NCBI GenBank assembly: GCA_963807175.1
Contig: CAWEAC010000005.1
Location: 43,130 to 107,129 of the forward strand
Source: an uncultured Alphaproteobacteria bacterium
GTDB taxonomy: Bacteria > Pseudomonadota > Alphaproteobacteria > Rhizobiales > Xanthobacteraceae
DNA: 64,000 nucleotides
Reading direction: 5' to 3'
Below are positions 4,746-46,675 of this stretch, in pieces (position 1 is the stretch's first letter; every line of letters starts with the position of its first letter). The notes below the pieces were generated by a model. It made no database searches and was not told the DNA's origin. It saw nothing but the letters and a program-made list of their open reading frames with translations. The translations under genes were made by a program, and so were the position numbers.

Positions 4746-7136
4746 ATGGCCGACAACCTCGACACCTTGCGCGAACTGGAAAAAAAGATCCTCTGGCTCG
4801 CCAGTTGGACCATCCACAACGCCAATCATCTGCGCGACCACAGCGACGGCCTCAAGGTCGGCGGCCACCAGGCGTCGTCGGCCTCGCTCGCCACCATCAT
4901 GACCGCGCTTTATCTCGACGTGTTGCGGCCGCAGGACCGCGTGGCGGTGAAGCCGCACGCTTCGCCTATCTTTCACGCCATCCAGTACCTGCTCGGCCGG
5001 CAGACGCGCGAGCGGCTGGAAACGTTTCGCGGCTACAAAGGCGCGCAGAGCTACCCCTCGCGCACCAAGGACTTGGACGACGTCGACTTCTCAACCGGCT
5101 CGGTGGGCTTGGGCGTGGCGCAAACGCTGTTCTCCTCGCTGGTGCAGGATTACGTGCGCGCGCACGGCTGGGGCTTGAGCCGTCCGGAAGGACGCATGGT
5201 CGCGCTGGTCGGCGATGCCGAACTCGACGAAGGCAACATCTTCGAAGCGCTGCTCGAAGGCTGGAAACAGGGCCTGCGCAATTGCTGGTGGATCATCGAC
5301 TACAACCGGCAGAGCCTCGACGCTGTCGTGCGCGAGGGCCTGTGGGAGCGCTACGAGCAACTGTTCAAGAATTTCGGCTGGGACGTGGTGATTCTGAAAT
5401 ACGGCTCGCTGCAGCAGGCCGCGTTCAAGGAGCCCGGCGGCGACCGGCTGCGGCAATGGATCGACCGCTGCCCCAACCCGCTCTACTCGGCGCTGGTGTT
5501 CGCCGGCGGCGCCGCCTGGCGTAAGCGGCTCAATGACGAGATCGGCGATCAAGGTGACGTCAGCCGGCTGATCGAGAAACGCTCCGACGACGAACTTGCC
5601 GCCTTGATGAACAATCTCGGCGGCCACGACCTGCCGTCCTTGCTGGAGGCGTTTCACAACGCGGACAACGACCGGCCGACCTGCTTCATCGCCTACACCG
5701 TCAAAGGCTTCGGCCTGCCGATGGCCGGGCATAAGGACAACCATGCCGGCCTGATGACCCCGGCGCAGATGGAGGTGTTCCGCAAGGCAATGGCGGTGCG
5801 CCCCGGCCACGAGTGGGAACCGTTCGAGGGCCTGTCGCTGCCGCCGGAGCAACTCCGGTCATTTCTCGATCGCGTTCCGTTCGCCGCCGACAAGGCGCGC
5901 CGTCTCAGCGCGCCGCCGATCGACGTGCCGGAGACTTTGCCGGTGACCATTCAGCCGGTGATGGCGACGCAGACCGGCTTCGGCGCGCTGCTCAACGAGA
6001 TCGGCCGCGGCGACGGCGAATTCGCGCAGCATATCGTCACGACGTCGCCCGACGTGACGGTTTCGACCAATCTCGGACCCTGGGTGAACCGGCGCGGGCT
6101 GTTCGCGCGCCAGGCCATGGCCGACACGTTCAAGAGCGAGCGCATCCCGTCCACGTTCAACTGGGAGTACTCGCCCAAGGGCCAGCATATCGAGCTCGGC
6201 ATCGCCGAGATGAATCTGTTCATCGTGCTGTCGGCACTCGGCCTCTCGCACAGCATCAACGGCGAGCGGCTGCTGCCGATCGGCACGCTGTACGATCCCT
6301 TCATCGCGCGCGGCCTCGATGCACTCAACTATGCCTGTTACCAGGATGCGCGCTTCATTCTGGTGGCGACGCCGTCGGGCATCACGCTGGCCGGCGAAGG
6401 CGGCGCGCATCAATCCATCGCCGAGCCGCTGATCGGGATCGCGCAGGACGGATTGGCGGCGTTCGAGCCCGCCTATGTCGACGAACTCGCGGTCATTTTG
6501 CGCTGGGCCTTCGCCTATATCCAGAAGGACAGCGATGCGGCGCCTTCCGAGCGCAACTGGCTGCGCGACGAAACCGGCGGCTCGGTCTATCTGCGGCTGT
6601 CGACGCGGCCGGTCGAGCAGATCGAGCGCAAGATGACGCCGGATCTGGCCCAGCAGATCGTCGATGGCGCGTATTGGCTGCGTAGGCCGGGGCCGAACGC
6701 ACAGGTGATCGTCGCCTACACCGGCGCCATCGCGCCGGAGGCGATCGAAGCCGTCGGCCTGATGGCGGAGGATCGCCGCGACGTCGGCTTGCTTGCGGTT
6801 ACCTCGGCCGACCGGCTCAACGCCGGCTGGACCGCCGCGCAGCGCGCGCGCGAGCGCGGCCTTGTCCATGCGCGCTCGCATATCGAGCGGCTATTGGCGG
6901 ACGTGCCGGCGCATTGCGGCATCGTCAGCGTGATCGACGGCCACCCGGCGACGCTGGCCTGGCTTGGCGCGGTCGCCGGTCATCGCACGCGCCCGCTCGG
7001 CGTCGAGCATTTCGGCCAGACCGGCTCGCTCGCCGAGCTTTACCAGCACTATGGCATCGACGCCAATGCCATCGTCGCGGCCGCGCAGGCGATCGCGCCC
7101 GGCCGGCCGATCCGGCACCTCAAGGCTTTGCCTTAG
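4746..7136 (+). CDS. AceE-like homodimeric ThDP enzyme (pyruvate dehydrogenase E1/transketolase-like)
   Basis: KVGGHQASSAS, FSTGSVGLG, ThDP motif GDAELDEG...DYNRQSLD and LGIAEMN; 796 aa. Confidence 0.8.
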   Translation: MADNLDTLRELEKKILWLASWTIHNANHLRDHSDGLKVGGHQASSASLATIMTALYLDVLRPQDRVAVKPHASPIFHAIQYLLGRQTRERLETFRGYKGAQSYPSRTKDLDDVDFSTGSVGLGVAQTLFSSLVQDYVRAHGWGLSRPEGRMVALVGDAELDEGNIFEALLEGWKQGLRNCWWIIDYNRQSLDAVVREGLWERYEQLFKNFGWDVVILKYGSLQQAAFKEPGGDRLRQWIDRCPNPLYSALVFAGGAAWRKRLNDEIGDQGDVSRLIEKRSDDELAALMNNLGGHDLPSLLEAFHNADNDRPTCFIAYTVKGFGLPMAGHKDNHAGLMTPAQMEVFRKAMAVRPGHEWEPFEGLSLPPEQLRSFLDRVPFAADKARRLSAPPIDVPETLPVTIQPVMATQTGFGALLNEIGRGDGEFAQHIVTTSPDVTVSTNLGPWVNRRGLFARQAMADTFKSERIPSTFNWEYSPKGQHIELGIAEMNLFIVLSALGLSHSINGERLLPIGTLYDPFIARGLDALNYACYQDARFILVATPSGITLAGEGGAHQSIAEPLIGIAQDGLAAFEPAYVDELAVILRWAFAYIQKDSDAAPSERNWLRDETGGSVYLRLSTRPVEQIERKMTPDLAQQIVDGAYWLRRPGPNAQVIVAYTGAIAPEAIEAVGLMAEDRRDVGLLAVTSADRLNAGWTAAQRARERGLVHARSHIERLLADVPAHCGIVSVIDGHPATLAWLGAVAGHRTRPLGVEHFGQTGSLAELYQHYGIDANAIVAAAQAIAPGRPIRHLKALP

Positions 7137-7162
7137 CGCATGATCCCGAAAAGCGGGAACCG
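7136..7162. repeat. Truncated short palindromic repeat (GCATGATCCCGAAAAG.GGGAACCG family)
   Basis: Matches the half of the copies at 13359-13407 and 25693-25742. Confidence 0.6.
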
Positions 7163-7170
7163 CCAAGAAG

Positions 7171-7740
7171 CTAGCGCATCCAGAGGCCCATGCCGAAAAT
7201 CGTGCCGATGACGCCGAAAATCACGATCCACACCACGAACAGGCAGACCACGACGGCAACCGTGTAGATCAGCGTCTTGCCCTGCGGCGGTCTCATCAGC
7301 GCCGCGATGCCGGTATACAAAAGATAGAGGCTGTAGAGCCCGAGAATGCCGAGAACGGCCAATACCGCTATCAGGTTGAAGACGCCGGCAACCCAGGCGG
7401 CCGTCGGCGCATAGGCCGACACCTTCATGGCATTGCCGAGATTCCTTTGCCCGTCGAACACGCCGGCGAGGTAATCGATGACGTAGGCCATGACGAAAAC
7501 GCCAACCAGCCCGAGCACGTAGACCACGATCGCGTGCAGCAACCCGGCCACGAAGCCTAATTGGTACGGGCCATAGCCGATGATGACGCCGCCGATGAAC
7601 GAGCACACCGGCGGAATCGCGGAGACGATGCAGACATAGTTCGTGAACAGGTAACCGGCATCGCCCGACTCCGCTGCGATCACGGGCCATTCGGATTTCG
7701 GCTGCAGCAATATCGCTTTGACGCGCTCGACGAGATTCAT
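7171..7740 (-). CDS. Yip1-domain membrane protein
   Basis: ERVKAILLQPKSEWPVI...AYAPTAAWVAG...YSLYLLYTG, with about 5 hydrophobic segments. Confidence 0.8.
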   Translation of the reverse strand: MNLVERVKAILLQPKSEWPVIAAESGDAGYLFTNYVCIVSAIPPVCSFIGGVIIGYGPYQLGFVAGLLHAIVVYVLGLVGVFVMAYVIDYLAGVFDGQRNLGNAMKVSAYAPTAAWVAGVFNLIAVLAVLGILGLYSLYLLYTGIAALMRPPQGKTLIYTVAVVVCLFVVWIVIFGVIGTIFGMGLWMR

Positions 7741-7771
7741 GACACCCTTCCTTTGATCCTCATGTTGACGT

Positions 7772-9403
7772 TCAACGCTGTCGATCCTCTAAAATCATAG
7801 CGGCGCCTTTTTCCGCGATCATCATGGTCGGCGAATTGGTGTTGCCGGACGTGATCGACGGCATCACCGAGGCGTCCGCCACCCGCAGGCCGTCGATGCC
7901 GATTACGCGCAGCCGCGCGTCCACCACCGCGTTGGCATCGTCGGCGCGCCCCATGCGGGCGGTGCCGACGGGATGGAAAATGGTGGTGCCGATGTCGCCC
8001 GCCGCCTTTATCAAACCTGCTTCGTCGTCGTCGCGCACCTGCGCGCCCGGCAGATATTCGACTGGCGAATATTTTTGCAGCGCCGGCTGCGCCACGATCC
8101 GGCGCGTGACGCGGATCGAGTCGGCGGCGACGCGGCGGTCTTCCGGCGTCGCCAGATAATTCGGATGGATCGCTGGCGCCGCCGCCGGGTCGGCCGATTT
8201 CAATTTCAGGCTGCCGCGGCTGGTCGGCTGCACGTTGGTGACGCTGACCGTGAAAGCCGGAAACGCATGCAGCGGCTCGCCGAACTTGTCGAGCGAGAGC
8301 GGCTGCACGTGATATTGAATATTGGCGCGGTCCCGCGTGGCATCGGATTTGGCGAAGGCGCCGAGTTGCGACGGCGCCATGGTCAAAGGCCCGCGCCGGA
8401 ACAAGGCATAGTTGACGCCCATCCAGGCGCGCGTGAACAGCGAGGCATACATCTCGTTCAAGGTTTTGACGCCGGTCGCCTTGTAGATCATCCGCAATTG
8501 CAGATGGTCATGCAGGTTGCCGCCGACGCCCGGTCTGTCGAGCACCACGGGAATGCCGAATTGGGCAAGCTGCGCCGCCGGCCCCACTCCAGACAGCATC
8601 ATGATTTGCGGCGAGCCGATCGAGCCGGCCGCCAACACGACTTCGCCGCGGCAATGCGCGGAACGCGCAACGCCGTCCTGCCGCCAGCGCATGCCGACGC
8701 AGCGCTTGCCGTCGAACGTCAAACCTTCGACCAGGCAACCGGTTTCCAGCCGCAGGTTTTGCCGGTTGAGCACCGGCTTGAGAAAGCCGCGCGCCGCCGA
8801 CCAGCGCCGTCCGAGCTTCTGGTTGACGTGGAAATAGCAGGAGCCGGCGTTGTCGCCGGTATTGAAGTCGTCGACCTTCGGAATGCCGTACTGCGCCGCC
8901 GCCTCGCGCCAGACATCGATGATGTCCCAGCGCAGGCGCGGAAATTCGACGCGCCATTCGCCGCCGACGCCGTGGTGCTCGCTGGCGCCTAGAAAATTGT
9001 CTTCGTGCTTCTTGAAATACGGCAGCACGTCGTCCCACGACCAGCCGGGCAACCCGAGCTGGCGCCAATGATCGTAGTCGCGGGCCTGCCCGCGCATGTA
9101 GATCATGGCGTTGATCGCCGAGGAGCCGCCGATCACCTTGCCGCGCGGATAATTGAGGCTGCGGCCGTTGAGGCCCTCCTCCGGCTCGGTCTTGAACATC
9201 CAGTCCGAGCGCGGATTGCCGATGGCGAACAAATAGCCGACCGGAATGTGAAACCAGATCCAGTTGTCCTTGCCGCCGGCTTCCAGCAGCAGCACCCGGT
9301 TGGCCGGATCGGCGGACAGGCGGTTGGCCAGCACGCAGCCGGCCGAGCCGGCGCCGACAATGATGTAATCGAACTCGCCTTCGATGGGCGCCGCGTCCGC
9401 CAT
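7772..9403 (-). CDS. GMC family oxidoreductase (choline dehydrogenase-like)
   Basis: [45 protein letters not shown] and [13 protein letters not shown] motifs. Start could also be 9412. Confidence 0.9.
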
Positions 9404-9586
9404 TGCCGCCATCCCCCTGACGGATTGGACTTTACCTTGGCCGGCGGGAGTTGCTAGGCTCTCCATCGACCTGCGGTGCACCGTGCGTGCGCTGCGAAAG
9501 CCGGAACGGCGGTTCCGACAACGGGTCGTTTCCAACTTTTATTCAACCCAAGCCCGGCGTCCCTACCGCGCCCGTGGAGAACCGCC

Positions 9587-10372
9587 ATGTTCGTACGCCT
9601 TCTTGCCGTTCTCGGCCTATTTGGCGCCCTCGCCGCCGCGCCGCAGCCCGCCGTCGCGCAGCAAAGCCTCACCGTCTTCGCCGCCGCGTCTTTGAAAAAT
9701 GCGCTCGACGAAGCCGATGCCGCCTTCAGCAAGGCGACCGGCGTCAAGGTGGTGGCGAGCTATGAGGCGAGTTCGGCGCTTGCCAAGCAGATCGAGGCCG
9801 GCGCGCCGGCCGACGTCTTCATATCCGCCGACTTAGCCTGGATGGATTATGCGTCGGCGCACAAGCTCATTAAGCCCGACACCCGGTTCAATCTGCTCGG
9901 CAACAGACTGGTTCTGATCACACCGAAGGAATCCAAACTCGACCATGTCGCCATCGCGAAGGGCTTCGACATCGCCAAGCTCGCCGGCGACGGACAAATC
10001 GCGGTGGCCGACGTCAAGGCGGTGCCTGCCGGCCGCTATGCCAAGGCGGCGCTGGAGAAGCTCGGAGCATGGTCAGCGGCCGAGCCGAAGCTGGCGCAGG
10101 CCGAAAACGTTCGCGCAACGCTCGCTTTCGTCGCGCGCGACGAAACCCCGCTCGGCATCGTTTATGCAACCGACGCCAAGATCGAGCCGAAGGTAAAAAT
10201 CGTCGGCGAATTCCCCGATGACGCCTACCCGCCGGTCACCTATCCAGCCGCCGAGACCATCGCCAGCAAGAACGCGGCCGCCGCGCGCTATCTCGCCTTC
10301 CTGCGCACAAGCGCTGCCAAGGCGGTCTTCGAGAAGTACGGCTTCAGCTTTCTGATCAAGCCGGTATCGTGA
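9587..10372 (+). CDS. modA: Molybdate ABC transporter substrate-binding protein
   Basis: VFAAASL, SSALAKQIEAGAPADVFISA and VPAGRYAK motifs. GGAG RBS upstream. Confidence 0.92.
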   Translation: MFVRLLAVLGLFGALAAAPQPAVAQQSLTVFAAASLKNALDEADAAFSKATGVKVVASYEASSALAKQIEAGAPADVFISADLAWMDYASAHKLIKPDTRFNLLGNRLVLITPKESKLDHVAIAKGFDIAKLAGDGQIAVADVKAVPAGRYAKAALEKLGAWSAAEPKLAQAENVRATLAFVARDETPLGIVYATDAKIEPKVKIVGEFPDDAYPPVTYPAAETIASKNAAAARYLAFLRTSAAKAVFEKYGFSFLIKPVS

Positions 10373-31560: not shown

Positions 31561-32886
31561 TCAATCTCCCGGTCCTGCGCGTGCTGCTGTCGGTTTGGCA
31601 CGCCGTTCTTGCGCCCGCCCCAAAACCAGGGACAAGATTAGCCAAGCGGCCGAAACCGGCGCGGCGATAAGAGCGATTGAGCCGAGTTTCAATCCTAAAA
31701 TCTGGAATATATCGAAGACCCAGCCAAACAGCGCATCAGAGCCGCGATATACGACCACGTCGATTAAGTTTTTGGCTTTGTACTTTTGTTCCCGATTGAG
31801 CACCGTATAGAACACTTGCCGCGCTGGATTGCTGAAGGCGAAGTGAAACCAGCGCTGAATCACCTGAAGAACGAGCACCACAGCCAGCGTCGGCATCAGA
31901 AATACGGCGAGAAAGCCGACCACATAAATCGCGGGCAGCGTGGCAGCAGCCACACCCGTCCCAAAGCGCTTGAGTAATCGCCCGGTGACGACAACCTGCG
32001 TTGCAAGAGTGAGCAGGTTCACCGCGAGGTCGATTGCCGCAAAAGTGCGGGTTTGCGCACCAGCACCGTGTACGTGGGCTGCAACCATATGGATCTGTTC
32101 GAAATAGAGCATCGTCGCACAGTACGACTGCAAGGCAATCCAGACTGCGATGCCCAACAGATAGGGTGAACGAATGAGCTCGGGTAGCGCGGCGAAGGCG
32201 CTGCCACCAAGGCGCTCCGGTTCGGCACGCGGTCCATCGTGGACCGCGGCCGCACGTTCGAGCCGCCAGACGCAGAATACGGCCAGTTCCAGTAAAATCA
32301 TGGCAACGATCAAGAGATTCATCGGGGCAAGCGATTCCAACAGCCCGATTGTGATGACAGGCCCGAGGAGCGCGCCTGCAGTACCACCGGCACCGATGAA
32401 GCCAAATAATCGCTTGCCCTGGTCCGCCGTAAATAGGTCGGCCATGAATGACCAGAAAACCGCAACAGCGAACAGGCTGAATACAGCTACCCACACGTAA
32501 AACGCACGCGCGACCATCGCAGTGTCAATTTTCAGCTTTAGCAACAACCAAAATAGCGCGAGGTTAACGACGAAAAAATGATAGACGATCGGGATGAAGC
32601 GCGCGCGCGGCAGTTTCTTGACCAACTCACCGTAGAGCGGTTGCGCAACGAGCAGCGTCACGAATGTCGCGGTGAACATCCACGGCAAGTTCCGCACGCC
32701 GCCCATGATACCCATCTGGTCGCGCAATGGACGAAGCACGTAATATCCCGCGAGCAGCGTGAAGAAATATGCAAACGACCATAAAGCGGCGATGCGCTCT
32801 TGCGGCGTGGCTGGCACTACGCGTGCCGTCCACCGTTGCAAAGATGCTACGGCACCGGCCCGGTTGTCGGTCGTCTCGATGGTCAT
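31561..32886 (-). CDS. ATP/ADP-translocase-like (NTT/AAA family) MFS carrier
   Basis: YYVLRPLRD, FWSFMADLFTADQGKRLFGFIGAGG, RQVFYTV and KYKAKNLIDVVVYRGSD motifs, with about 12 hydrophobic segments. Confidence 0.8.
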   Translation of the reverse strand: MTIETTDNRAGAVASLQRWTARVVPATPQERIAALWSFAYFFTLLAGYYVLRPLRDQMGIMGGVRNLPWMFTATFVTLLVAQPLYGELVKKLPRARFIPIVYHFFVVNLALFWLLLKLKIDTAMVARAFYVWVAVFSLFAVAVFWSFMADLFTADQGKRLFGFIGAGGTAGALLGPVITIGLLESLAPMNLLIVAMILLELAVFCVWRLERAAAVHDGPRAEPERLGGSAFAALPELIRSPYLLGIAVWIALQSYCATMLYFEQIHMVAAHVHGAGAQTRTFAAIDLAVNLLTLATQVVVTGRLLKRFGTGVAAATLPAIYVVGFLAVFLMPTLAVVLVLQVIQRWFHFAFSNPARQVFYTVLNREQKYKAKNLIDVVVYRGSDALFGWVFDIFQILGLKLGSIALIAAPVSAAWLILSLVLGRAQERRAKPTAARAGPGD

Positions 32887-33626
32887 TGCAACGAGAGCTT
32901 CTGCTTAAGCTCGGCTGCGCTCACCGGCTGGCCGTAACCGGGACCTCCGCGTTGAAACAGTTTCGCATCGACCAGCTTGCCGACTATGACTGGATCGAAA
33001 CCGGCGTCGCGGACGAGCCGGGCCGCCACCTGAACTGCCTCTGGATCGTCACCGGCAATGGGTACCGCCAATTTCGGATCAGGGCGGTTCGCCTCGCGGG
33101 CGAATGTCCTGTATGACATCGTATTGAAGGCGCGAACAAGCCGCGTCCCTGGCAGATACTTTTGCGAGGTCACGCCCACACCGTTGGCCTCGACTTCTTC
33201 GGCGACTGTCCCATCGCGTGCAGCGACTGCGTTACAGGTGTCGAGCACGATTTTGCCCTTGAGCGCGGCGGCGTAATCCCGACCGATTTGCGGTAGCGCA
33301 CTATACGGCACGGAGATCAATACGGCGTCACCGAATGCGATCGCTTGATCGACGGTGCCGGCCTGGGCCAGCGGCCCAAGGTTTGCCACCAAATCTTTTA
33401 GCTCCTCAGGACGGCGCGAGGAGAACAAGACCTTATGGCCATTCTTGACCCAAAGCCCTCCGATGGTACTGCCAATATGGCCAGCCCCAATGGTCCCGAT
33501 CGGGATCTTGCTGCCGCTATTGCTCTGAGCCCGTAAGCTTGCAGGCCATAGAGTTGCGCCCATGATCAAGGCACCTGTGGCAAGCACCTTGCGGCGATCG
33601 CGGTCAATGTCATCAAGTTTTGGCAT
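32883..33626 (-). CDS. NADPH-dependent F420-reductase-like Rossmann oxidoreductase with Tat-like signal
   Basis: DRRKVL, h-region and LRA cleavage site; GAGHIG, FSSRRP, LDTCNA and VRAFNT motifs. ATGA overlap with the carrier gene. Confidence 0.8.
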   Translation of the reverse strand: MPKLDDIDRDRRKVLATGALIMGATLWPASLRAQSNSGSKIPIGTIGAGHIGSTIGGLWVKNGHKVLFSSRRPEELKDLVANLGPLAQAGTVDQAIAFGDAVLISVPYSALPQIGRDYAAALKGKIVLDTCNAVAARDGTVAEEVEANGVGVTSQKYLPGTRLVRAFNTMSYRTFAREANRPDPKLAVPIAGDDPEAVQVAARLVRDAGFDPVIVGKLVDAKLFQRGGPGYGQPVSAAELKQKLSLQ

Positions 33627-33814
33627 GAGACGCTCCCGGCGTTCAGCTCGCAAAGCTACATCAAAATCCAGTGCAATTGTGATAGGGCATTGGATGTCGG
33701 CCATGCGCCATGGGCGGCTTCGGGGCAACGGCGCACTGAGCTGCTCCATCGTGGAAGCTTGGACAACTGTCATCTTTGCGGCCTTTTTAATTTTTTGACC
33801 ATACGGGGTGCGCG

Positions 33815-34069
33815 TGTCGATTGCTTCCCCGCTCATGCAGCCTTCCCCAAATGGCAAGAGGGTCGGCATCCGCATTGTCACTTTCGAGGCCTGCTCAGGC
33901 TTCACTCACGTTACGGCCCGCCGGATTGCTCAGCCGCCTAAAGCGGCCTTTGTCACAAGGCTCCAGCCCTGCCGGTTACCCGGCCGAGCCGCTCGTCAGC
34001 TACCAGATCAATCGACAACTCTCTGGGTGGAATCTTCCTCCACTAGTGATCCGCGCCTTCGGGGCGCAC
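33815..34069 (-). mobile_element. Group II intron 5' fragment (domain I only, no RT ORF)
   Basis: The minus strand starts GTGCGCCCCGAAGGCGCGGATC... at 34069 and continues as structured, intron-like sequence for ~255 nt. No domain V/VI or intron-encoded protein follows. Confidence 0.62.
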
Positions 34070-35119: not shown

Positions 35120-36151
35120 TTACGCCGCGAGTGCGACGGGTTCCTTATAACGCTCGCCTCTGGCCATCATGGCCCAGGCCATCCGGGCTAGCTTGTTGGC
35201 AAGCGCGATGGCCGCGACCTTGGTTGGCTTTCGAGCCAGCAATGCCGTGAGCCAGGGCCGATGCTTGGTGCCATGGATCTTGGCGTAGCGGATGACGGCG
35301 AGCGCGCCGGCCATGAACAGGCTGCGCAGATAGCGGTCACCCTGCTTACTGATGCTACCGAGCCTGTCCTTGCCCCCGCTTGAGTGCTGCTTCGGCACCA
35401 ACCCAATCCAGGCCGAGAAGTTGCGCCCTGATCGAAAGACCTTTGGGTCAGCGACGCAGGCAACCAGGGCCGTAGCCAGCATCGGACCGACACCGGGGAT
35501 CGCATCGAGCCGCATACTCGCCTCATTAGATCGATGCCAGGCCATGATCTGTCGGTCGAACTCCAGAATCTGCTCCTTGAGCCTACGCAGTTGAGCCCCA
35601 AGTGCTGCGAGGCACACCCGTGCAACCTTGGGCAACCGGTCGTCATTTGAATCGGCGACGACATCGAGAAGTTCCTCGACACCCTTGCGCCCGACTGGTG
35701 CGACGATCCCGAACTCGGCCAAATGGGCCCGGATCACATTGATCACCGCGGTCTGCTGGCGGATGAACAGATGGCGCGTGCGATGGAGCATCAGACAGCT
35801 CTGCTGTTCTGGGGTCTTGGTTGGCACGAACCGCATATTGGGCCTGGTGACCGCCTCACAGATCGCCTCCGCGTCAGTGGCATCGTTCTTCTGCCGTTTG
35901 ACGTAAGGCTTCACGTAGGCCGGCGGCATCAGGCGCACCGTATGACCGAGCGCCTTGAGCTCACGCGACCAATGGTGCGACGAGGCGCAAGCTTCGATCC
36001 CGACCAGGCATGACGGCAGCTTCTGGAAGAACGCCAGGACATAGCGGCGTTTCAACTGACGCCGGATGATTACTCTATCTTCTGCGTCGATGCCGTGAAC
36101 CTGAAACACCGACTTGGCGATGTCGAGACCGATTGTCGTAACCGTTTGCAT
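35120..36151 (-). CDS. IS110 family transposase/recombinase
   Basis: DEDD RuvC-like motifs IGLDIAK, GIEAC and KNDATDAEAI; Tnp20 domain IPGVG, GLVPKQHSSGGK and ISKQGDRYLR. Confidence 0.95.
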   Translation of the reverse strand: MQTVTTIGLDIAKSVFQVHGIDAEDRVIIRRQLKRRYVLAFFQKLPSCLVGIEACASSHHWSRELKALGHTVRLMPPAYVKPYVKRQKNDATDAEAICEAVTRPNMRFVPTKTPEQQSCLMLHRTRHLFIRQQTAVINVIRAHLAEFGIVAPVGRKGVEELLDVVADSNDDRLPKVARVCLAALGAQLRRLKEQILEFDRQIMAWHRSNEASMRLDAIPGVGPMLATALVACVADPKVFRSGRNFSAWIGLVPKQHSSGGKDRLGSISKQGDRYLRSLFMAGALAVIRYAKIHGTKHRPWLTALLARKPTKVAAIALANKLARMAWAMMARGERYKEPVALAA

Positions 36152-43836: not shown

Positions 43837-44181
43837 ATGCGGCTGGCTAGAAGAGTTTTTGTCGCGTTTGTGATGACCGCCACTGCGCTAATTGCAGAAA
43901 CAAATATGGTTCGAGCAGCCGGTAGCTGTAGTGAACAATACGGCACCTGTTTTAGTATGTGCAAACAAAACGGTTTTGGCAGAAAGCGCGCCGATCATCC
44001 GCATCCTCAATCGGCGGAAACATGCCGCAATCACTGCATAGGATGGAAAACCAGCTGCCTGCGAACTGGATGCCGGAACGGTGATCTCGTTCAAGTATGC
44101 GGTCTCGACAAGCGCCAGTTTTGCCGCCCAACGTCGGCTTGCTCCAATAGATGGGGTAATCGGCCGGCAGCTTGTGGATAG
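43837..44181 (+). CDS. Small Cys-rich secreted protein, probably reading through a lost stop codon
   Basis: Signal peptide followed by 8 Cys ending CGLDKR. The tail runs through the repeat into the IS end. Confidence 0.6.
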   Translation: MRLARRVFVAFVMTATALIAETNMVRAAGSCSEQYGTCFSMCKQNGFGRKRADHPHPQSAETCRNHCIGWKTSCLRTGCRNGDLVQVCGLDKRQFCRPTSACSNRWGNRPAACG

Positions 44182-44268
44182 CTGAAGAATCTGGGTGCTG
44201 CGCTTCAGGCTGATGGTGAATACGAGGTCCGTTGTCGCGGCCTCAAGCATCAGAAGGAGAAGCGCAGC

Positions 44269-45297
44269 ATGGACCATTTTGCTGGATTGGACGTATCGGT
44301 CAAGGAGACCAGCGTCTGCGTTGTGGATGACATGGGCAGGATTGTACGAGAAGTGAAGGTAGCGAGCGAGCCTGAAGCTCTGCTGCAAGTCTTGAAGAAT
44401 CCCGCCTACCACTTCAAGCGGATCGGACTGGAAGCCGGACCATTATCGCAATGGCTGTTCAGTGCACTCGCCGAAGCGGGCTTGCCGGTGATCTGTGTCG
44501 AGACGCGGCACATGCGGGCGGTGTTGAAAGCACAAATCAACAAGACCGACCGCAACGATGCACGCGGCATGGCGCAGATGATGCGGGCGGGGATTTACCG
44601 CCCGGTGCATGTAAAGACGCTGCGCAGTCAGAAACTGCGAATGCTGCTGACCCACCGCAAGCTGCTGCAGTCCAAGGCCATTGCCATCGACAACGACCTG
44701 CGCGGCACCTTGCGCAACTTTGGCCTCAAAGTGGGTATAGTCAGGACTGCAAAGTTCGAAGCCCGCATCAGGGAGCTGGTCGAAAACTTTCCCGACTTGG
44801 CCGCTCTGGTCGAACCACTGCTCGTTGTCCGACGGACGCTTCGCGAGCAGTTCTGCGTCCTGCACCGCCGCTTGCTCGCTATCGTGCGGGACGATGAGGT
44901 GTGCCGGCGCCTGATGACGACGCCCGGTGTAGGGCCCGTGGTGTCGCTAACCTATCGTGCCACCGTCGATGTACCCGCACGCTTTCGTAGGTCCAAGTCA
45001 GTCGGGGCGGTGTTTGGTCTGACGTGTGCCAAGTATCAATCGGGCGAGGTGGATTGGAGCGGCAGAATATCATGCTGCGGAGATGAGATGATGCGAGGCA
45101 TGCTCTACGAAGCAGCTCAGGCCATGATGCGTTCGAAGAAATGGTCATGGCTCAAGGCCTGGGCGATGCAGATCGCCAGGCGCCGCGGGATGAAGAAGGC
45201 GATCGTGGCGCTGGCGCGCCGGCTGGCCGTGATCATGCACCGCATATGGGTTGATGGCACCGAGTTCCGCTGGACCCGGGAGGCCGCAGTGGCATGA
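44269..45297 (+). CDS. IS110 family transposase/recombinase
   Basis: AGLDVS, IGLEAG, NKTDRNDARG, TPGVG, YQSGE and ISCCGDEMMR motifs. Confidence 0.95.
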   Translation: MDHFAGLDVSVKETSVCVVDDMGRIVREVKVASEPEALLQVLKNPAYHFKRIGLEAGPLSQWLFSALAEAGLPVICVETRHMRAVLKAQINKTDRNDARGMAQMMRAGIYRPVHVKTLRSQKLRMLLTHRKLLQSKAIAIDNDLRGTLRNFGLKVGIVRTAKFEARIRELVENFPDLAALVEPLLVVRRTLREQFCVLHRRLLAIVRDDEVCRRLMTTPGVGPVVSLTYRATVDVPARFRRSKSVGAVFGLTCAKYQSGEVDWSGRISCCGDEMMRGMLYEAAQAMMRSKKWSWLKAWAMQIARRRGMKKAIVALARRLAVIMHRIWVDGTEFRWTREAAVA

Positions 45298-45566
45298 CGG
45301 CCGTAGGCAATCAAATACGATAGGAGGAATCTCGAGTTCCACTAAGCCGTGGAAAGATGTCCCTCGCGGGACGATGGATGAGGTGAGTTCGTTTGTCCGC
45401 TTGGACCTGCCGTCACTCTGCCGGCAAGGCCGCCCAATAGATTGTTCCGCCTCGTCTTCGAATCCCATGATGGAAAGGCCTTCGTGCCGATTCCGAAGAG
45501 AAGCACGAGCCCGTGAGCGACATCGGCACTGCAGTGGTGGATAGTCTGAAAGTGCTTGACCCCAAA
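45298..45566 (+). ncRNA. Putative bridge/seek RNA of the second IS110 element
   Basis: Target and donor guide-like segments are separated by hairpins (see findings). RNA ends are not defined. Confidence 0.72.
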
Positions 45567-45659
45567 CGGCCGATTAGAGAAGCGGACAACGCGGGAGCGG
45601 CCGGAATGTTCGTTGAGTGCCATAGGCGACCTGCAAGTGCCAGCGATGTCGTGCTTGTC

Positions 45660-46675
45660 TTAGTCGATACTGAGATGGATAAGTCGCTTCCCGAGGTTTT
45701 CTCCCCGATAAAGCTCGGCAATGGCGCCAGGCAATGCTCCAGCCCCTCGTCAATATCTTCGCGATACCGCAATCTGCCATCGCGAACCCAACTGGCGAGG
45801 CGCGCTATCGCTTCTTCAAAGCGGTGTGCGTAGTCGAAAATAAGCAAGCCGCTCATGCGCGCTCGCTTCACAAGCAAATACCGTTCGATGCGAGGGCCTT
45901 GCGGTGGTGGGTCCCAGCTTGAAATCGAAGCTGTACCGCAAACGACTATTCGAGCGCCAATGGCTAGCTGCGCGTAAACTGTATCGCTGATATCACCCGC
46001 GGTATTATCAAAATAGACATCGACGCCGTGCGGACAGGCAACGGCCAACGCCGTGCTAAGATTGTCAGCTTTGTAGTCTATCGCTTCGTCATAGCCAAAT
46101 TCATCGCGGCACAACTTCATCTTAGTCGGCCCACCGGTGATACCGATAGTGCAACAACCCATCAGTTTCGCAATCTGGCCGACTGCGGAGCCGACCGCAC
46201 CTGCCGCGGTAGAAACAACGACCGTGTCACCGGGCCGAGGCGCACCTAAATCCAGTAGTCCGATATAAGCGGCCACGCCATTGAGCCCGAGAATGCCTAG
46301 CGACAACGATAGCGGTAGATCAGTTTCGTTGACTTTGCGAGTGATCGAAGCGCCATCGGATATGGCGAACTGTTGCCAGCCAAGCATGCCCATCACCTTA
46401 TCGCCTTCCGAGTAGCCAGGATGGCGGGACGCTATGACTGTGCCAGCTGCAAAAGAGCGCATAACTTCGCCGATGCCGACTGGTGTCGCGTAATTGGTGA
46501 CTGCACTGACCCAGCCGCGCATTGCCGGTTCGACCGACAAATATTCATTGCGTACCAAAAATTGTCGCTCAGCAAGCTCTGGCACCGACGTCTCGACAAT
46601 CTCGAAATGCTCGGCCTGTGGAATGCCGGTTGGGCGTGCCTTGAGCCGGACCTGTCTGTTGAGCCCTTCCGCCAT
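45660..46675 (-). CDS. NADP-dependent oxidoreductase (CurA/PTGR-like), with an apparent frameshift at ~45730
   Basis: LSVEPAMRGW, VSTAAGAVGSAVGQ and CPHGVDVYFDN motifs. Adding one base restores CPGAIAELYRGENLGKRLI and a stop at 45660-45662. Confidence 0.85.

What the first reader, a model, noticed from the sequence alone, without database searches (positions are those of the whole stretch)
44144..45590. Second, divergent IS110 element also shows target and donor guides, aimed at another module of the same repeat
Seen: the empty site is CTCCAAT-AG-CGGACAA. The 3' non-coding end has TTGTCCGCT (45393-45401, the reverse complement of AGCGGACAA), a TGCCG/CGGCA hairpin and CCAATAG (45434-45440), closed by GATGAGGTG/CGCCTCGTC. 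The predicted junction is TTAGAGA-AG-ATGGGG. The second loop has TCCCAT (45463-45468, 5/6 with a wobble), a GGAA/TTCC hairpin and AGAGAAG (45497-45503). The loop order and guide polarity are the same as in the first element despite a very different transposase and core dinucleotide.
Basis: partly seen in the sequence, partly recalled or inferred. Interest (0 to 1): 0.72.

Follow-up and report, generated by a model that had tools for sequence, protein, structure and literature searches.

The report
IS1111-type insertion sequence with bridge RNA

Summary
Window 44151-45582 (+) is a 1432-bp IS1111-type element: DEDD transposase (44269-45297), 10-bp subterminal inverted repeats, AG core at both junctions, and a 285-nt 3' non-coding region. 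In 70 close copies from soil genomes and 18 diverse relatives from plasmids, all four proposed guides covary with their DNA partners (0 of 5,000-10,000 permutations each). Partners are the right flank, the left flank, the first 6 nt of the element and the last 7 nt. The RNA fold has four helices with many compensatory changes (89.5% of cells paired, against 35-45% when partners are slid). The target is a REP-like palindrome, ATGTCCGCT-loop-AGCGGACAT; empty sites exist in related genomes. The predicted RE-AG-LE junction occurs exactly in three metagenome contigs, as DNA abutments, not proven circles. This is the seekRNA/bridge-RNA system described in 2024 for IS1111 elements, so it is a new member of a known kind. 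Expression, processing and activity of this copy remain inferred. Side observations: natural retargeting of the left guide (19 alleles) and tandem duplicated RNA modules in some relatives.

The parts
44142..44150 (+). Left half of the target (CTCCAAT) plus core dinucleotide AG (44149-50), outside the element
   Evidence: Flanks diverge immediately upstream of AG in 70 copies; the left target guide matches it 7/7
44151..44156 (+). Left terminal extension ATGGGG (the donor half read by the right donor guide)
   Evidence: Conserved start of the element in all copies; complementary to TCCCAT with one G-U pair; covaries in relatives
44157..44166 (+). Left subterminal inverted repeat TAATCGGCCG
   Evidence: Perfect reverse complement of 45567-45576; equivalent repeats at the same distance from the ends in relatives
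44269..45297 (+). Transposase/recombinase gene, 342 aa, intact
   Evidence: Pfam DEDD_Tnp_IS110 + Transposase_20; NCBIfam NF033542 'IS110 family RNA-guided transposase' 237.6 bits, cutoff 140; C-terminal domain matches IS621 and ISCro4 structures; candidate motifs GLDVS (from residue 6), GLEAG (53), KTDRNDA (92), GRISCCG (265)
45337..45354 (+). Conserved small hairpin TTCCAC...GTGGAA upstream of the guide RNA core
   Evidence: Present with changed stem bases (TTCCGC/GCGGAA) in distant relatives; role unknown
45363..45369 (+). P0, 5' strand (CTCGCGG) of a long-range closing helix; overlaps the invariant GGGACG motif and competes with the local GTCCC/GGGAC hairpin (45359-63/45368-72)
   Evidence: RNAalifold; 6 of 7 pairs have compensatory changes
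45377..45385 (+). P1, 5' strand (GATGAGGTG), base of the target-binding loop
   Evidence: Pairs with 45448-56; 6 of 8 pairs with compensatory changes
45393..45401 (+). Right target guide TTGTCCG+CT, complementary to the top strand of core+right flank AGCGGACAA
   Evidence: 9/9 in the window; covaries with right flanks
45403..45431 (+). P2, apical hairpin of the target-binding loop (45403-13 pairs with 45421-31)
   Evidence: 8 of 10 pairs with compensatory changes
45434..45440 (+). Left target guide CCAAT+AG, identical to the top strand of left flank+core (pairs with the bottom strand)
   Evidence: 7/7 in the window; 19 alleles among close copies that track their own flanks; 7/7 in 12 of 18 diverse elements
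45448..45456 (+). P1, 3' strand (CGCCTCGTC)
45463..45468 (+). Right donor guide TCCCAT, complementary to ATGGGG at the left end (5 Watson-Crick + 1 G-U)
   Evidence: Covaries with left-end variants ATGGGA, ATAGGA, ATGCCG, ATGCTG, ATGCGG, ATCGGA in relatives
45472..45494 (+). P3, hairpin of the donor-binding loop (45472-79 pairs with 45486-94)
   Evidence: 97.9% of cells paired; 4 of 7 pairs with compensatory changes
45497..45503 (+). Left donor guide AGAGA+AG, identical to the last 7 nt of the element
   Evidence: 7/7 in 17 of 18 diverse elements, including ends ACAGAAG, ACCGAAG, ACGGAAG; AGACGAC in a Ralstonia relative
45511..45517 (+). P0, 3' strand (CCGTGAG)
45556..45561 (+). Outward-facing -35-like box TTGACC. 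It lies 17 nt before GAAGAT, which would form only when right and left ends are joined (inferred junction promoter)
   Evidence: TTGAC conserved at this place in all relatives. GAAGAT matches TATAAT at only 3 of 6 positions by my own count. Function inferred by analogy with ISEc11 (PMC11187229)
45567..45576 (+). Right subterminal inverted repeat CGGCCGATTA
45577..45582 (+). Right terminal extension GAGA plus core AG; end of the element
45583..45589 (+). Right half of the target, CGGACAA (right arm of a REP-like palindrome), outside the element
   Evidence: CGGACA[AT] follows the element in most of 70 copies; intact palindromes exist in related genomes

Best explanation
Window 44151-45582 is an intact IS1111-type insertion sequence of the IS110 family. 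Its 3' non-coding region encodes a roughly 155-nt structured RNA (about 45363-45517, + strand) of the bridge-RNA/seekRNA kind.

The RNA has two guide-bearing loops:
- The 5' loop is closed by P1 and capped by P2. It holds one segment that pairs with the top strand of core+right flank (TTGTCCGCT) and one that pairs with the bottom strand of left flank+core (CCAATAG). Together these specify AG at the edge of the right arm of a REP-like palindrome.
- The 3' loop is capped by P3. It holds one segment that pairs with the element's first six bases (TCCCAT with ATGGGG) and one identical to its last seven (AGAGAAG). Together these specify the joined ends of the excised element.
- A long-range helix P0 ties the whole RNA together.

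Inferred mechanism, by homology with IS621 and ISEc11: the DEDD/serine recombinase binds this RNA, brings the RE-AG-LE junction of a circular copy next to the target, and exchanges strands at the AG core without a target duplication. The RNA is probably made as part of the transposase transcript and trimmed, with a junction promoter (TTGACC-17-GAAGAT) formed only in the circle.

What is shown here: element anatomy, ends, target, covariation of the four guides, and the RNA fold.

What is inferred: transcription and processing, protein binding, the circle, and activity of this copy.
For: - Protein family.
- Ends and target from 70 copies.
- Subterminal inverted repeats and a 285-nt 3' against a 118-nt 5' non-coding region.
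- Target-guide covariation in close copies, 0/10,000 permutations.
- Covariation of all four guides in 18 diverse elements, 0/5,000 each.
- RNA fold: 89.5% of cells paired against 35-45% with slid partners; 133 double-change cells against 19-56; 0/500 shuffles.
- Strand: G-U pairs (for example U-G in P1) fit only the + strand.
- The covariance model finds held-out relatives: L085 at 145 bits, L100 at 45 bits.
- Empty REP-like sites such as GGGTCAATAGCGGACAT occur in related genomes.
- The exact predicted junction occurs in three metagenome contigs.
- Metatranscriptome contigs of relatives cover the element, including the 3' region, and stop at its ends.
- Published family traits match: PMC11187229, PMC11208160.
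Against: - No direct evidence that the RNA is made, trimmed or bound.
- The metatranscriptome data are assembled contigs of relatives. They cannot show RNA ends and may contain DNA.
- The single-sequence fold is not significant (z = -1.74) and does not show the two loops.
- No Rfam family matches.
- No sigma-70-like promoter on the + strand inside the element, and the inferred junction -10 (GAAGAT) is weak.
- The donor-guide statistics rest on related sequences, so changes are not all independent. Two relatives (L081, L086: left end ATGAGG against CCCCAT) carry an uncompensated mismatch.
- The junction contigs are RE remnants next to a full element, not circles or full dimers.
- In this copy one P2 base differs from the family consensus (GACGG to GCCGG), and the left arm of the host palindrome is degenerate.
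Confidence: 0.9

Rival explanations
1. The matches to the flank are not guides. They would be a REP fragment captured in the 3' region, since TTGTCCGCT is also the sequence of the palindrome's left arm, and the other matches would be chance.
For: The target is a palindrome whose left arm equals the proposed right target guide. The 6-mer donor match alone is expected by chance about half the time.
Against: Relatives that sit in unrelated, non-REP targets carry the matching sequence at the same two RNA positions. Examples are L080 CGACTGGCT/AGCCAGTCG, L085 CAATGGGTCT/AGACCCATTG and L098 TGGTCAGGACT/AGTCCTGACC. The left guide tracks the variable loop, not the arm. Permutation tests gave 0/5,000.
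Confidence: 0.03
2. The element is of the described kind, but this copy is a dead relic. The RNA or protein no longer works and the guides merely record a past insertion.
For: There is only one copy in the 64-kb window. One P2 base departs from the family consensus. No near-identical copy was found in plasmids. No run holds more than 47% of the element's sampled 31-mers.
Against: The ORF is full length and up to 96% identical to relatives. All four guides match their partners perfectly or with a wobble. All helices can form, and the model scores 168 bits, in the range of other copies. Both ends and the inverted repeats are intact.
Confidence: 0.25
3. Only the 5' loop (target recognition) is RNA-guided. 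The ends would be recognised by the protein through the subterminal inverted repeats, and the apparent donor guides would be conserved for another reason, such as promoter or processing signals.
For: The published short seekRNAs of IS1111 elements (82-96 nt) carry the two target matches (PMC11187229, section 9), and P1-to-P1 here spans 80 nt. The left donor guide is nearly invariant within clades. The right donor guide does not pair with the core and tolerates mismatches.
Against: Across clades the 7-mer changes together with the right end (AGAGAAG, ACAGAAG, ACCGAAG, ACGGAAG, AGACGAC). The 6-mer changes together with the left end (six variants). Both sit on either side of a hairpin with 14 compensatory cells at one pair. 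Durrant et al. predict donor loops in IS1111 bridge RNAs (PMC11208160).
Confidence: 0.1

Closest known systems
IS1111-family seekRNA elements ISEc11, ISKpn4, ISPa11, ISPst6 (Siddiquee et al. 2024, PMC11187229)
   Same: DEDD transposase, subterminal inverted repeats and a long non-coding region downstream of the gene. The RNA carries one segment complementary to the top strand of the target 5' of one complementary to the bottom strand. The two matches overlap at the insertion point. There is no target duplication. An outward -35 sits in the right end.
   Different: Different target (a REP-like palindrome of soil Alphaproteobacteria). The terminal extensions are 6 nt (left) and 4 nt plus the AG core (right), rather than the usual 7 and 3. 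The transposase was not compared directly with those elements here. Nothing was tested experimentally here.
IS621 bridge RNA (Durrant et al. 2024, PMC11208160; Hiraizumi et al. 2024, PMC11208158)
   Same: Two internal loops, one for target and one for donor. Each has one guide per DNA strand around a 2-nt core. The target loop is 5' of the donor loop. It targets REP sequences. The C-terminal domain of the protein aligns to IS621.
   Different: The RNA lies 3' of the gene, not 5'. Inverted repeats are long (10 bp against 2-3 bp). The core is AG, not CT. Order of the top-strand and bottom-strand guides within the target loop was not compared with IS621 here; Siddiquee et al. report it reversed between IS1111- and IS110-type elements, on ISEc21. 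A long-range helix closes the whole RNA. Only the C-terminal domain aligns significantly (E 3e-10).
ISPpu9/ISPpu10 of Pseudomonas putida (Pares-Guillen et al. 2025, PMC12288879)
   Same: IS110-family elements inserted at an AG inside REP palindromes. A small-RNA module downstream of the transposase gene can be present in extra copies bounded by AG. This resembles the tandem second RNA modules seen here in relatives L010, L013, L042 and L048.
   Different: ISPpu9 belongs to the IS110 group, without subterminal repeats. Its downstream RNA, Ssr9, is not required for transposition and is not the guide RNA. Here the downstream RNA carries the guides.
The first IS110-family element of this window (36235-34842, minus strand)
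   Same: Same geometry: a 6-nt left extension (ATGCTG), an 11-bp subterminal repeat (TGGACGGCTCC), a 4-nt right extension plus a 2-nt core, and a long 3' non-coding region. Right-target-like TTGTGCC (35009-03) lies 5' of left-target-like GCTTTTG (34983-77), followed by a left-donor-like ACACATG (34912-06). Its flanks look like the same REP family.
   Different: 29% protein identity. The core is TG. The insertion point is in the left part of the palindrome's loop. Its RNA is not detected by the covariance model built here. It was examined by eye only.

Membership tests
IS110 family (DEDD RNA-guided transposases) | N-terminal DEDD/RuvC-like domain plus C-terminal Transposase_20 domain | tested here: met
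   Pfam PF01548 (E 1e-18) and PF02371 (E 7e-20); NCBIfam NF033542 237.6 bits against cutoff 140; matches IS621 and ISCro4 chains
IS110 family | Site-specific insertion without a target-site duplication; a short core shared by donor and target | tested here: met
   70 copies sit at N5-AG|CGGACA[AT]-type sites; only AG is common to both junctions
IS1111 group | Subterminal inverted repeats (7-17 bp) with short asymmetric terminal extensions | tested here: met
   TAATCGGCCG 44157-66 / CGGCCGATTA 45567-76. Extensions are 6 nt and 4 nt + core, close to but not the same as the usual 7 and 3 (PMC11187229)
IS1111 group | The longer non-coding region lies downstream of the transposase gene | tested here: met
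   285 nt downstream against 118 nt upstream
seekRNA / bridge RNA | RNA segments complementary to both strands of the target, overlapping at the insertion point; in IS1111 types the top-strand match is 5' of the bottom-strand match | tested here: met
   45393-45401 (top strand) precedes 45434-45440 (bottom strand). Both include the core. Covariation
seekRNA / bridge RNA | A second loop complementary to the joined ends of the element (donor) | tested here: met
   45463-68 and 45497-45503 covary with the left and right ends in 18 diverse elements, 0/5,000 permutations each. Two relatives carry one uncompensated mismatch
seekRNA / bridge RNA | Conserved secondary structure that presents the guides in internal loops | tested here: met
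   Four helices, 24 of 33 pairs with compensatory changes
seekRNA / bridge RNA | The RNA is expressed, co-purifies with the transposase and is required for transposition | not testable with these tools
   Only contig-level presence of relatives in metatranscriptomes
IS110/IS1111 transposition pathway | Circular intermediate with abutted ends and a junction promoter | tested here: inconclusive
   The exact RE-AG-LE junction occurs in three metagenome contigs, but as an RE remnant plus a full element. A conserved -35 TTGACC lies 17 nt from a weak -10 GAAGAT
Rfam RNA families | Match to a curated covariance model | tested here: not met
   No hit at gathering score or at E up to 10 in 44100-45650. 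No match to any of the 4227 Rfam 15 models searched

The most novel reading that the evidence does not exclude
This soil and rhizobial IS1111 clade may be a natural example of fast guide re-programming and of modular RNA spread. Close copies (84.5-93.6% nt identity to the window copy) carry 19 different left-target-guide alleles that follow the hypervariable loop of the host's REP palindromes. Several copies have gained a second, complete RNA module joined exactly at the AG core to an internal AG. That pattern would fit recombinase-made duplication of the guide module, a step towards multi-guide or autonomous RNA-only elements. The long-range closing helix P0, which competes with the invariant GUCCC/GGGAC hairpin, could then act as a switch between two RNA states.
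Probability: 0.15. Interest if true: 0.55.

Novelty: new member of a known kind. Interest (0 to 1): 0.3.

Why it matters
It adds nothing new in principle. RNA-guided target and donor recognition by IS1111 elements was published in 2024.

Its value is as a well-documented natural dataset:
- dozens of sibling copies whose guides and targets can be read side by side
- donor-guide covariation across a whole clade of plasmid-borne relatives
- a covariation-supported fold for a 3'-encoded bridge RNA that matches none of the Rfam 15 models searched

These could help to set the rules of mismatch tolerance, and to choose orthogonal recombinase/RNA pairs, since two such elements with 29% identical proteins and different cores coexist in this window.

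Tried and rejected
- **Rfam:** gathering and permissive scans gave nothing relevant.
- **Single-sequence folding of the 3' region:** not significant (z = -1.74) and misleading.
- **CACG/CGTG hairpin at 45504-15:** the local hairpin I first read there is displaced by the covariation-supported long-range helix P0.
- **Search for the empty site in the window:** no copy within 3 mismatches, and no intact palindrome in the window at the stringency used. AGCGGACA is not over-represented there.
- **Near-identical copies in plasmids:** none, only 65-71% relatives.
- **Fixed-column extraction of guides from the MAFFT alignment:** this misplaced the right target and right donor guides in several distant relatives. 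I replaced it with a register-free score using the same control.
- **Covariance model R1:** it does not find the first element's RNA or any orphan copy in the window.
- **Sequencing runs:** none holds the window's own element (at most 47% of words), and metatranscriptome contigs cannot define RNA ends or circles.
- **Junction contigs:** they turned out to be RE remnants next to a full element, not dimers.
- **L090, L092, L100 and L101:** their ends or RNA could not be aligned with confidence, so they were left out of the statistics.
- **One dinucleotide-shuffle script timed out:** the chance estimate therefore uses mononucleotide shuffles.
Full report
**1. What is in the sequence**

- The open reading frame 44269-45297 (+) encodes a 342-aa protein. 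It has the two Pfam domains of IS110-family transposases.
- It makes a full-length match to NCBIfam NF033542, 'IS110 family RNA-guided transposase' (237.6 bits, cutoff 140).
- Its C-terminal domain aligns to the solved IS621 and ISCro4 transposases.
- A second IS110-family gene in the window (35120-36151, minus strand) is 29% identical.

**2. Ends and target, determined independently of the RNA**

A scan of one genome per species returned 79 loci whose protein is 89-96% identical. Nearly all come from soil metagenome-assembled Alphaproteobacteria, often with several copies per genome. Aligned on the window copy, the DNA is conserved exactly from ATGGGGTAATCGG to CGGCCGATTAGAGAAG and diverges outside.

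The element is therefore 44151-45582.
- AG is present at both junctions (44149-50 and 45581-82).
- A perfect 10-bp subterminal inverted repeat sits at 44157-66 and 45567-76.
- The terminal extensions are 6 nt (left) and 4 nt plus core (right).
- The non-coding regions are 118 nt in 5' and 285 nt in 3'.

These are the defining traits of the IS1111 group (PMC11187229; PMC11208160).

The right flank is CGGACA[A/T] in most copies, and the left flank is variable. Many left flanks show GTCCGCT about 8-12 nt upstream. The target is thus a REP-like palindrome, [A/T]TGTCCGCT-loop-AGCGGACA[T/A], cut between the loop and the right arm. Intact palindromes, including GGGTCAATAGCGGACAT and CCCCCAATAGCAGACAA, occur in the flanks of related loci. 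The window itself holds no intact copy.

**3. Target guides**

In 69 close copies I compared two RNA positions with each copy's own flanks: the position of TTGTCCG (45393-99) and the position of CCAAT (45434-38).

| Guide | Own flank | Shuffled flanks | Permutations reaching own value |
|---|---|---|---|
| Left guide, 5 variable bases | 4.17 of 5 | 2.69 | 0 of 10,000 |
| Right guide | 6.2 of 7 | 5.2 | 0 of 10,000 |

Examples:
- guide CACTT with flanks CACTT (four copies)
- GGCAT with GGCAT
- CCGAT with CCGAT (three copies)
- right guide ACTTCCG with flank CGGAAGT (two copies)
- ATGTCTG with CAGACAT (five copies)

Relatives at 40-71% protein identity on rhizobial and roseobacter plasmids sit in quite different sequences. 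They still carry the match at the same two positions: L080 CGACTGGCT/AGCCAGTCG and TCGACAG/TCGACAG; L085 CAATGGGTCT/AGACCCATTG; L098 TGGTCAGGACT/AGTCCTGACC and CAATGAG/CAATGAG.

**4. Donor guides**

The ends are constant in the close copies, so only the distant relatives are informative. I assigned their ends by the subterminal repeats: 6 nt before the left repeat and 6 nt after the right repeat. This rule does not use the RNA.

The 7-mer at the position of AGAGAAG equals the last 7 nt of the element in 17 of 18 elements. It changes with the end:
- AGAGAAG in the window, L080, L082-L084, L086-L089 and L094-L095 (L081 carries the same guide, but its right end reads AAAGAAG: the single 6/7 case)
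- ACAGAAG in L091, L093 and L099
- ACCGAAG in L096 and L098
- ACGGAAG in L097
- AGACGAC, with an AC core, in a Ralstonia relative read by eye

The 6-mer at the position of TCCCAT is complementary to the first 6 nt of the element:

| Left end | RNA 6-mer | Locus |
|---|---|---|
| ATGGGG | CCCCAT or TCCCAT | window and others |
| ATGGGA | TCCCAT | L082 |
| ATAGGA | TCCTAT | L087 |
| ATGCCG | TGGCAT | L091 |
| ATGCTG | CAGCAT | L098 |
| ATGCGG | TCGCAT | L099 |
| ATCGGA | CCCGAT | L089 |

L081 and L086 (ATGAGG against CCCCAT) carry one uncompensated mismatch.

I then ran a register-free score with identical treatment of own and foreign partners:

| Guide | Own | Cross | Length |
|---|---|---|---|
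| Right target | 7.44 | 4.59 | 9 |
| Left target | 6.33 | 4.05 | 7 |
| Right donor | 5.33 | 4.26 | 6 |
| Left donor | 6.94 | 5.71 | 7 |

Each gave 0 of 5,000 permutations. The sequences are related, so these are not probabilities of independent events. The number of distinct end and guide combinations still makes coincidence untenable.

**5. RNA fold**

I used an alignment of 34 non-redundant sequences. RNAalifold recovered P1, the donor-loop hairpin, and an unexpected long-range helix. Counting a four-helix model:

| Helix | 5' strand | 3' strand |
|---|---|---|
| P0 | 45363-69 | 45511-17 |
| P1 | 45377-85 | 45448-56 |
| P2 | 45403-13 | 45421-31 |
| P3 | 45472-79 | 45486-94 |

- 89.5% of cells are paired, against 35-45% when partners are slid by 1-3 columns.
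- 24 of 33 pairs show changes on both sides.
- There are 133 double-change cells, against 19-56 in the slid controls.
- No shuffle out of 500 reaches any observed measure.

G-U pairs fix the strand as +. P0 overlaps the invariant GGGACG motif and competes with the local GUCCC/GGGAC hairpin; which form is functional is open. P1 to P1 spans 80 nt, about the size of the published short seekRNAs (82-96 nt, PMC11187229).

A covariance model built from this alignment finds only 45357-45518 in the window (168 bits). It recovers held-out relatives: L085 at 145 bits and L100 at 45 bits.

**6. Junction and expression**

The predicted junction CGATTAGAGAAG|ATGGGGTAATCGG occurs exactly in three metagenome contigs. 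In each, a 17-36-nt right-end remnant abuts a full element. This fits insertion of a copy at the right junction of an older one, or a decayed head-to-tail dimer. It shows the abutment with a single AG but does not show a circle.

A TTGAC box is conserved in the right end of all relatives. It lies 17 nt from GAAGAT, which forms only across the junction. This resembles the junction promoters of ISEc11 and IS621, but the -10 is weak.

No promoter-like site lies on the + strand inside the element. Metatranscriptome contigs from soil, peat and permafrost cover relatives of the whole element, including the 3' region, and stop at 44152 and about 45582. They cannot give RNA ends and may include DNA.

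**7. Comparison with what is known**

The anatomy and the order of the guides (top-strand match 5' of bottom-strand match) are those reported for IS1111-family seekRNAs (PMC11187229, sections 9 and 12). A bridge RNA in the right end was predicted for 93% of IS1111 elements (PMC11208160). REP palindromes are known targets of IS110-family elements such as IS621 and ISPpu9 (PMC12288879). All testable membership features are met. Expression, protein binding and the circle could not be tested.

The finding is therefore correct, and it is a new member of a known kind.

**8. The sub-claims about the first element**

BLAST against plasmids places that element at about 36246-34830. Reading the sequence gives:
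- core TG (36237-36)
- left end ATGCTG
- subterminal repeat TGGACGGCTCC (36229-19 and 34858-48)
- right end CACA+TG (34847-42)
- flanks GTCCGCTTT-TG-GCACAACG, which resemble the left arm and loop of the same palindrome family

Its 3' region holds TTGTGCC (35009-03, complementary to GGCACAA), then GCTTTTG (34983-77, equal to left flank+core), then ACACATG (34912-06, equal to the right end). This is the same order as in the second element, and it is what the family predicts. I did not test it by covariation.

**9. Verdict**

Observation confirmed and interpretation supported. The mechanism is inferred by strong homology. Novelty is low and interest is modest.

Noticed in passing
L010:3089-3540, L013:3089-3539, L042:3104-3482, L048:3427-3858 (relatives, not the window): Some sibling copies carry a second, complete or nearly complete copy of the guide-RNA module directly after the right end. 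The joint is always right after the AG core (GAGAAG|), and the duplicated stretch starts after an internal AG. In L010 this is CAGCAG|CATGAAA at the stop codon. In L042 it is GGTGAG|TTCGCAT inside the target loop. This looks like recombinase-made module duplication and recalls the ssr9 modules of ISPpu9.
   Followed up: partly
L051 and L068 right flanks; window 45514-45522 (GAGCGACAT): In two relatives the element is followed by the last ~70 nt of another copy's 3' region, starting at ...AG|CGACATCGACACT. The 3' region contains AGCGACAT, which resembles the target AGCGGACAT. These elements therefore seem able to insert into one another's RNA gene.
   Followed up: no
L102:1175-1216, L103:971-995, L104:7727-7751: Metagenome contigs in which a 17-36-nt remnant of a right end abuts a full element, with exactly the predicted RE-AG-LE junction. 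This may be a decayed head-to-tail dimer or an insertion at an older copy's right junction.
   Followed up: partly
window 36235-34842 (minus strand): The first IS110-family element is also IS1111-type. It has core TG, an 11-bp subterminal repeat TGGACGGCTCC, and a 3' region with guide-like matches in the same order. It is inserted in the left part of the loop of what looks like the same REP-like palindrome family.
   Followed up: partly
window 33906-34045 (minus strand): Rfam group II intron domain D1-D4 match (RF02003, 101 bits, E 2e-21), about 800 bp from the first IS element. ORFs on the same strand at 32883-33905 and 31561-32886 lie next to it on the low-coordinate side; they were not examined.
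   Followed up: no
window 45413-46675 (minus strand): The 420-aa ORF next to the element, whose family I did not test, runs through the right junction into the element. Even in the reconstructed empty site it has no nearby stop (451 aa). Its 3' end may therefore be frameshifted independently of the insertion.
   Followed up: partly
window 43837-44181 (+): A small ORF has a hydrophobic N-terminal stretch (signal-peptide-like by eye, not tested) and many cysteines. It reads across the left junction. In the empty site it would end 11 codons after the insertion point, so the REP-like target lies at or in its 3' end, if the gene is real.
   Followed up: no
window 45359-45373: GGGACG is invariant in all 34 aligned RNAs. 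It can form either a local GUCCC/GGGAC hairpin or, through its first two G, the long-range helix P0. The two forms are mutually exclusive.
   Followed up: partly
run X28, loose end before window 45344: One metatranscriptome contig joins GGCCGATTAGAG (right-end sequence) directly to position 45344, just upstream of the RNA core. This could be another rearranged or RNA-only module. It rests on a single 12-letter overhang.
   Followed up: no
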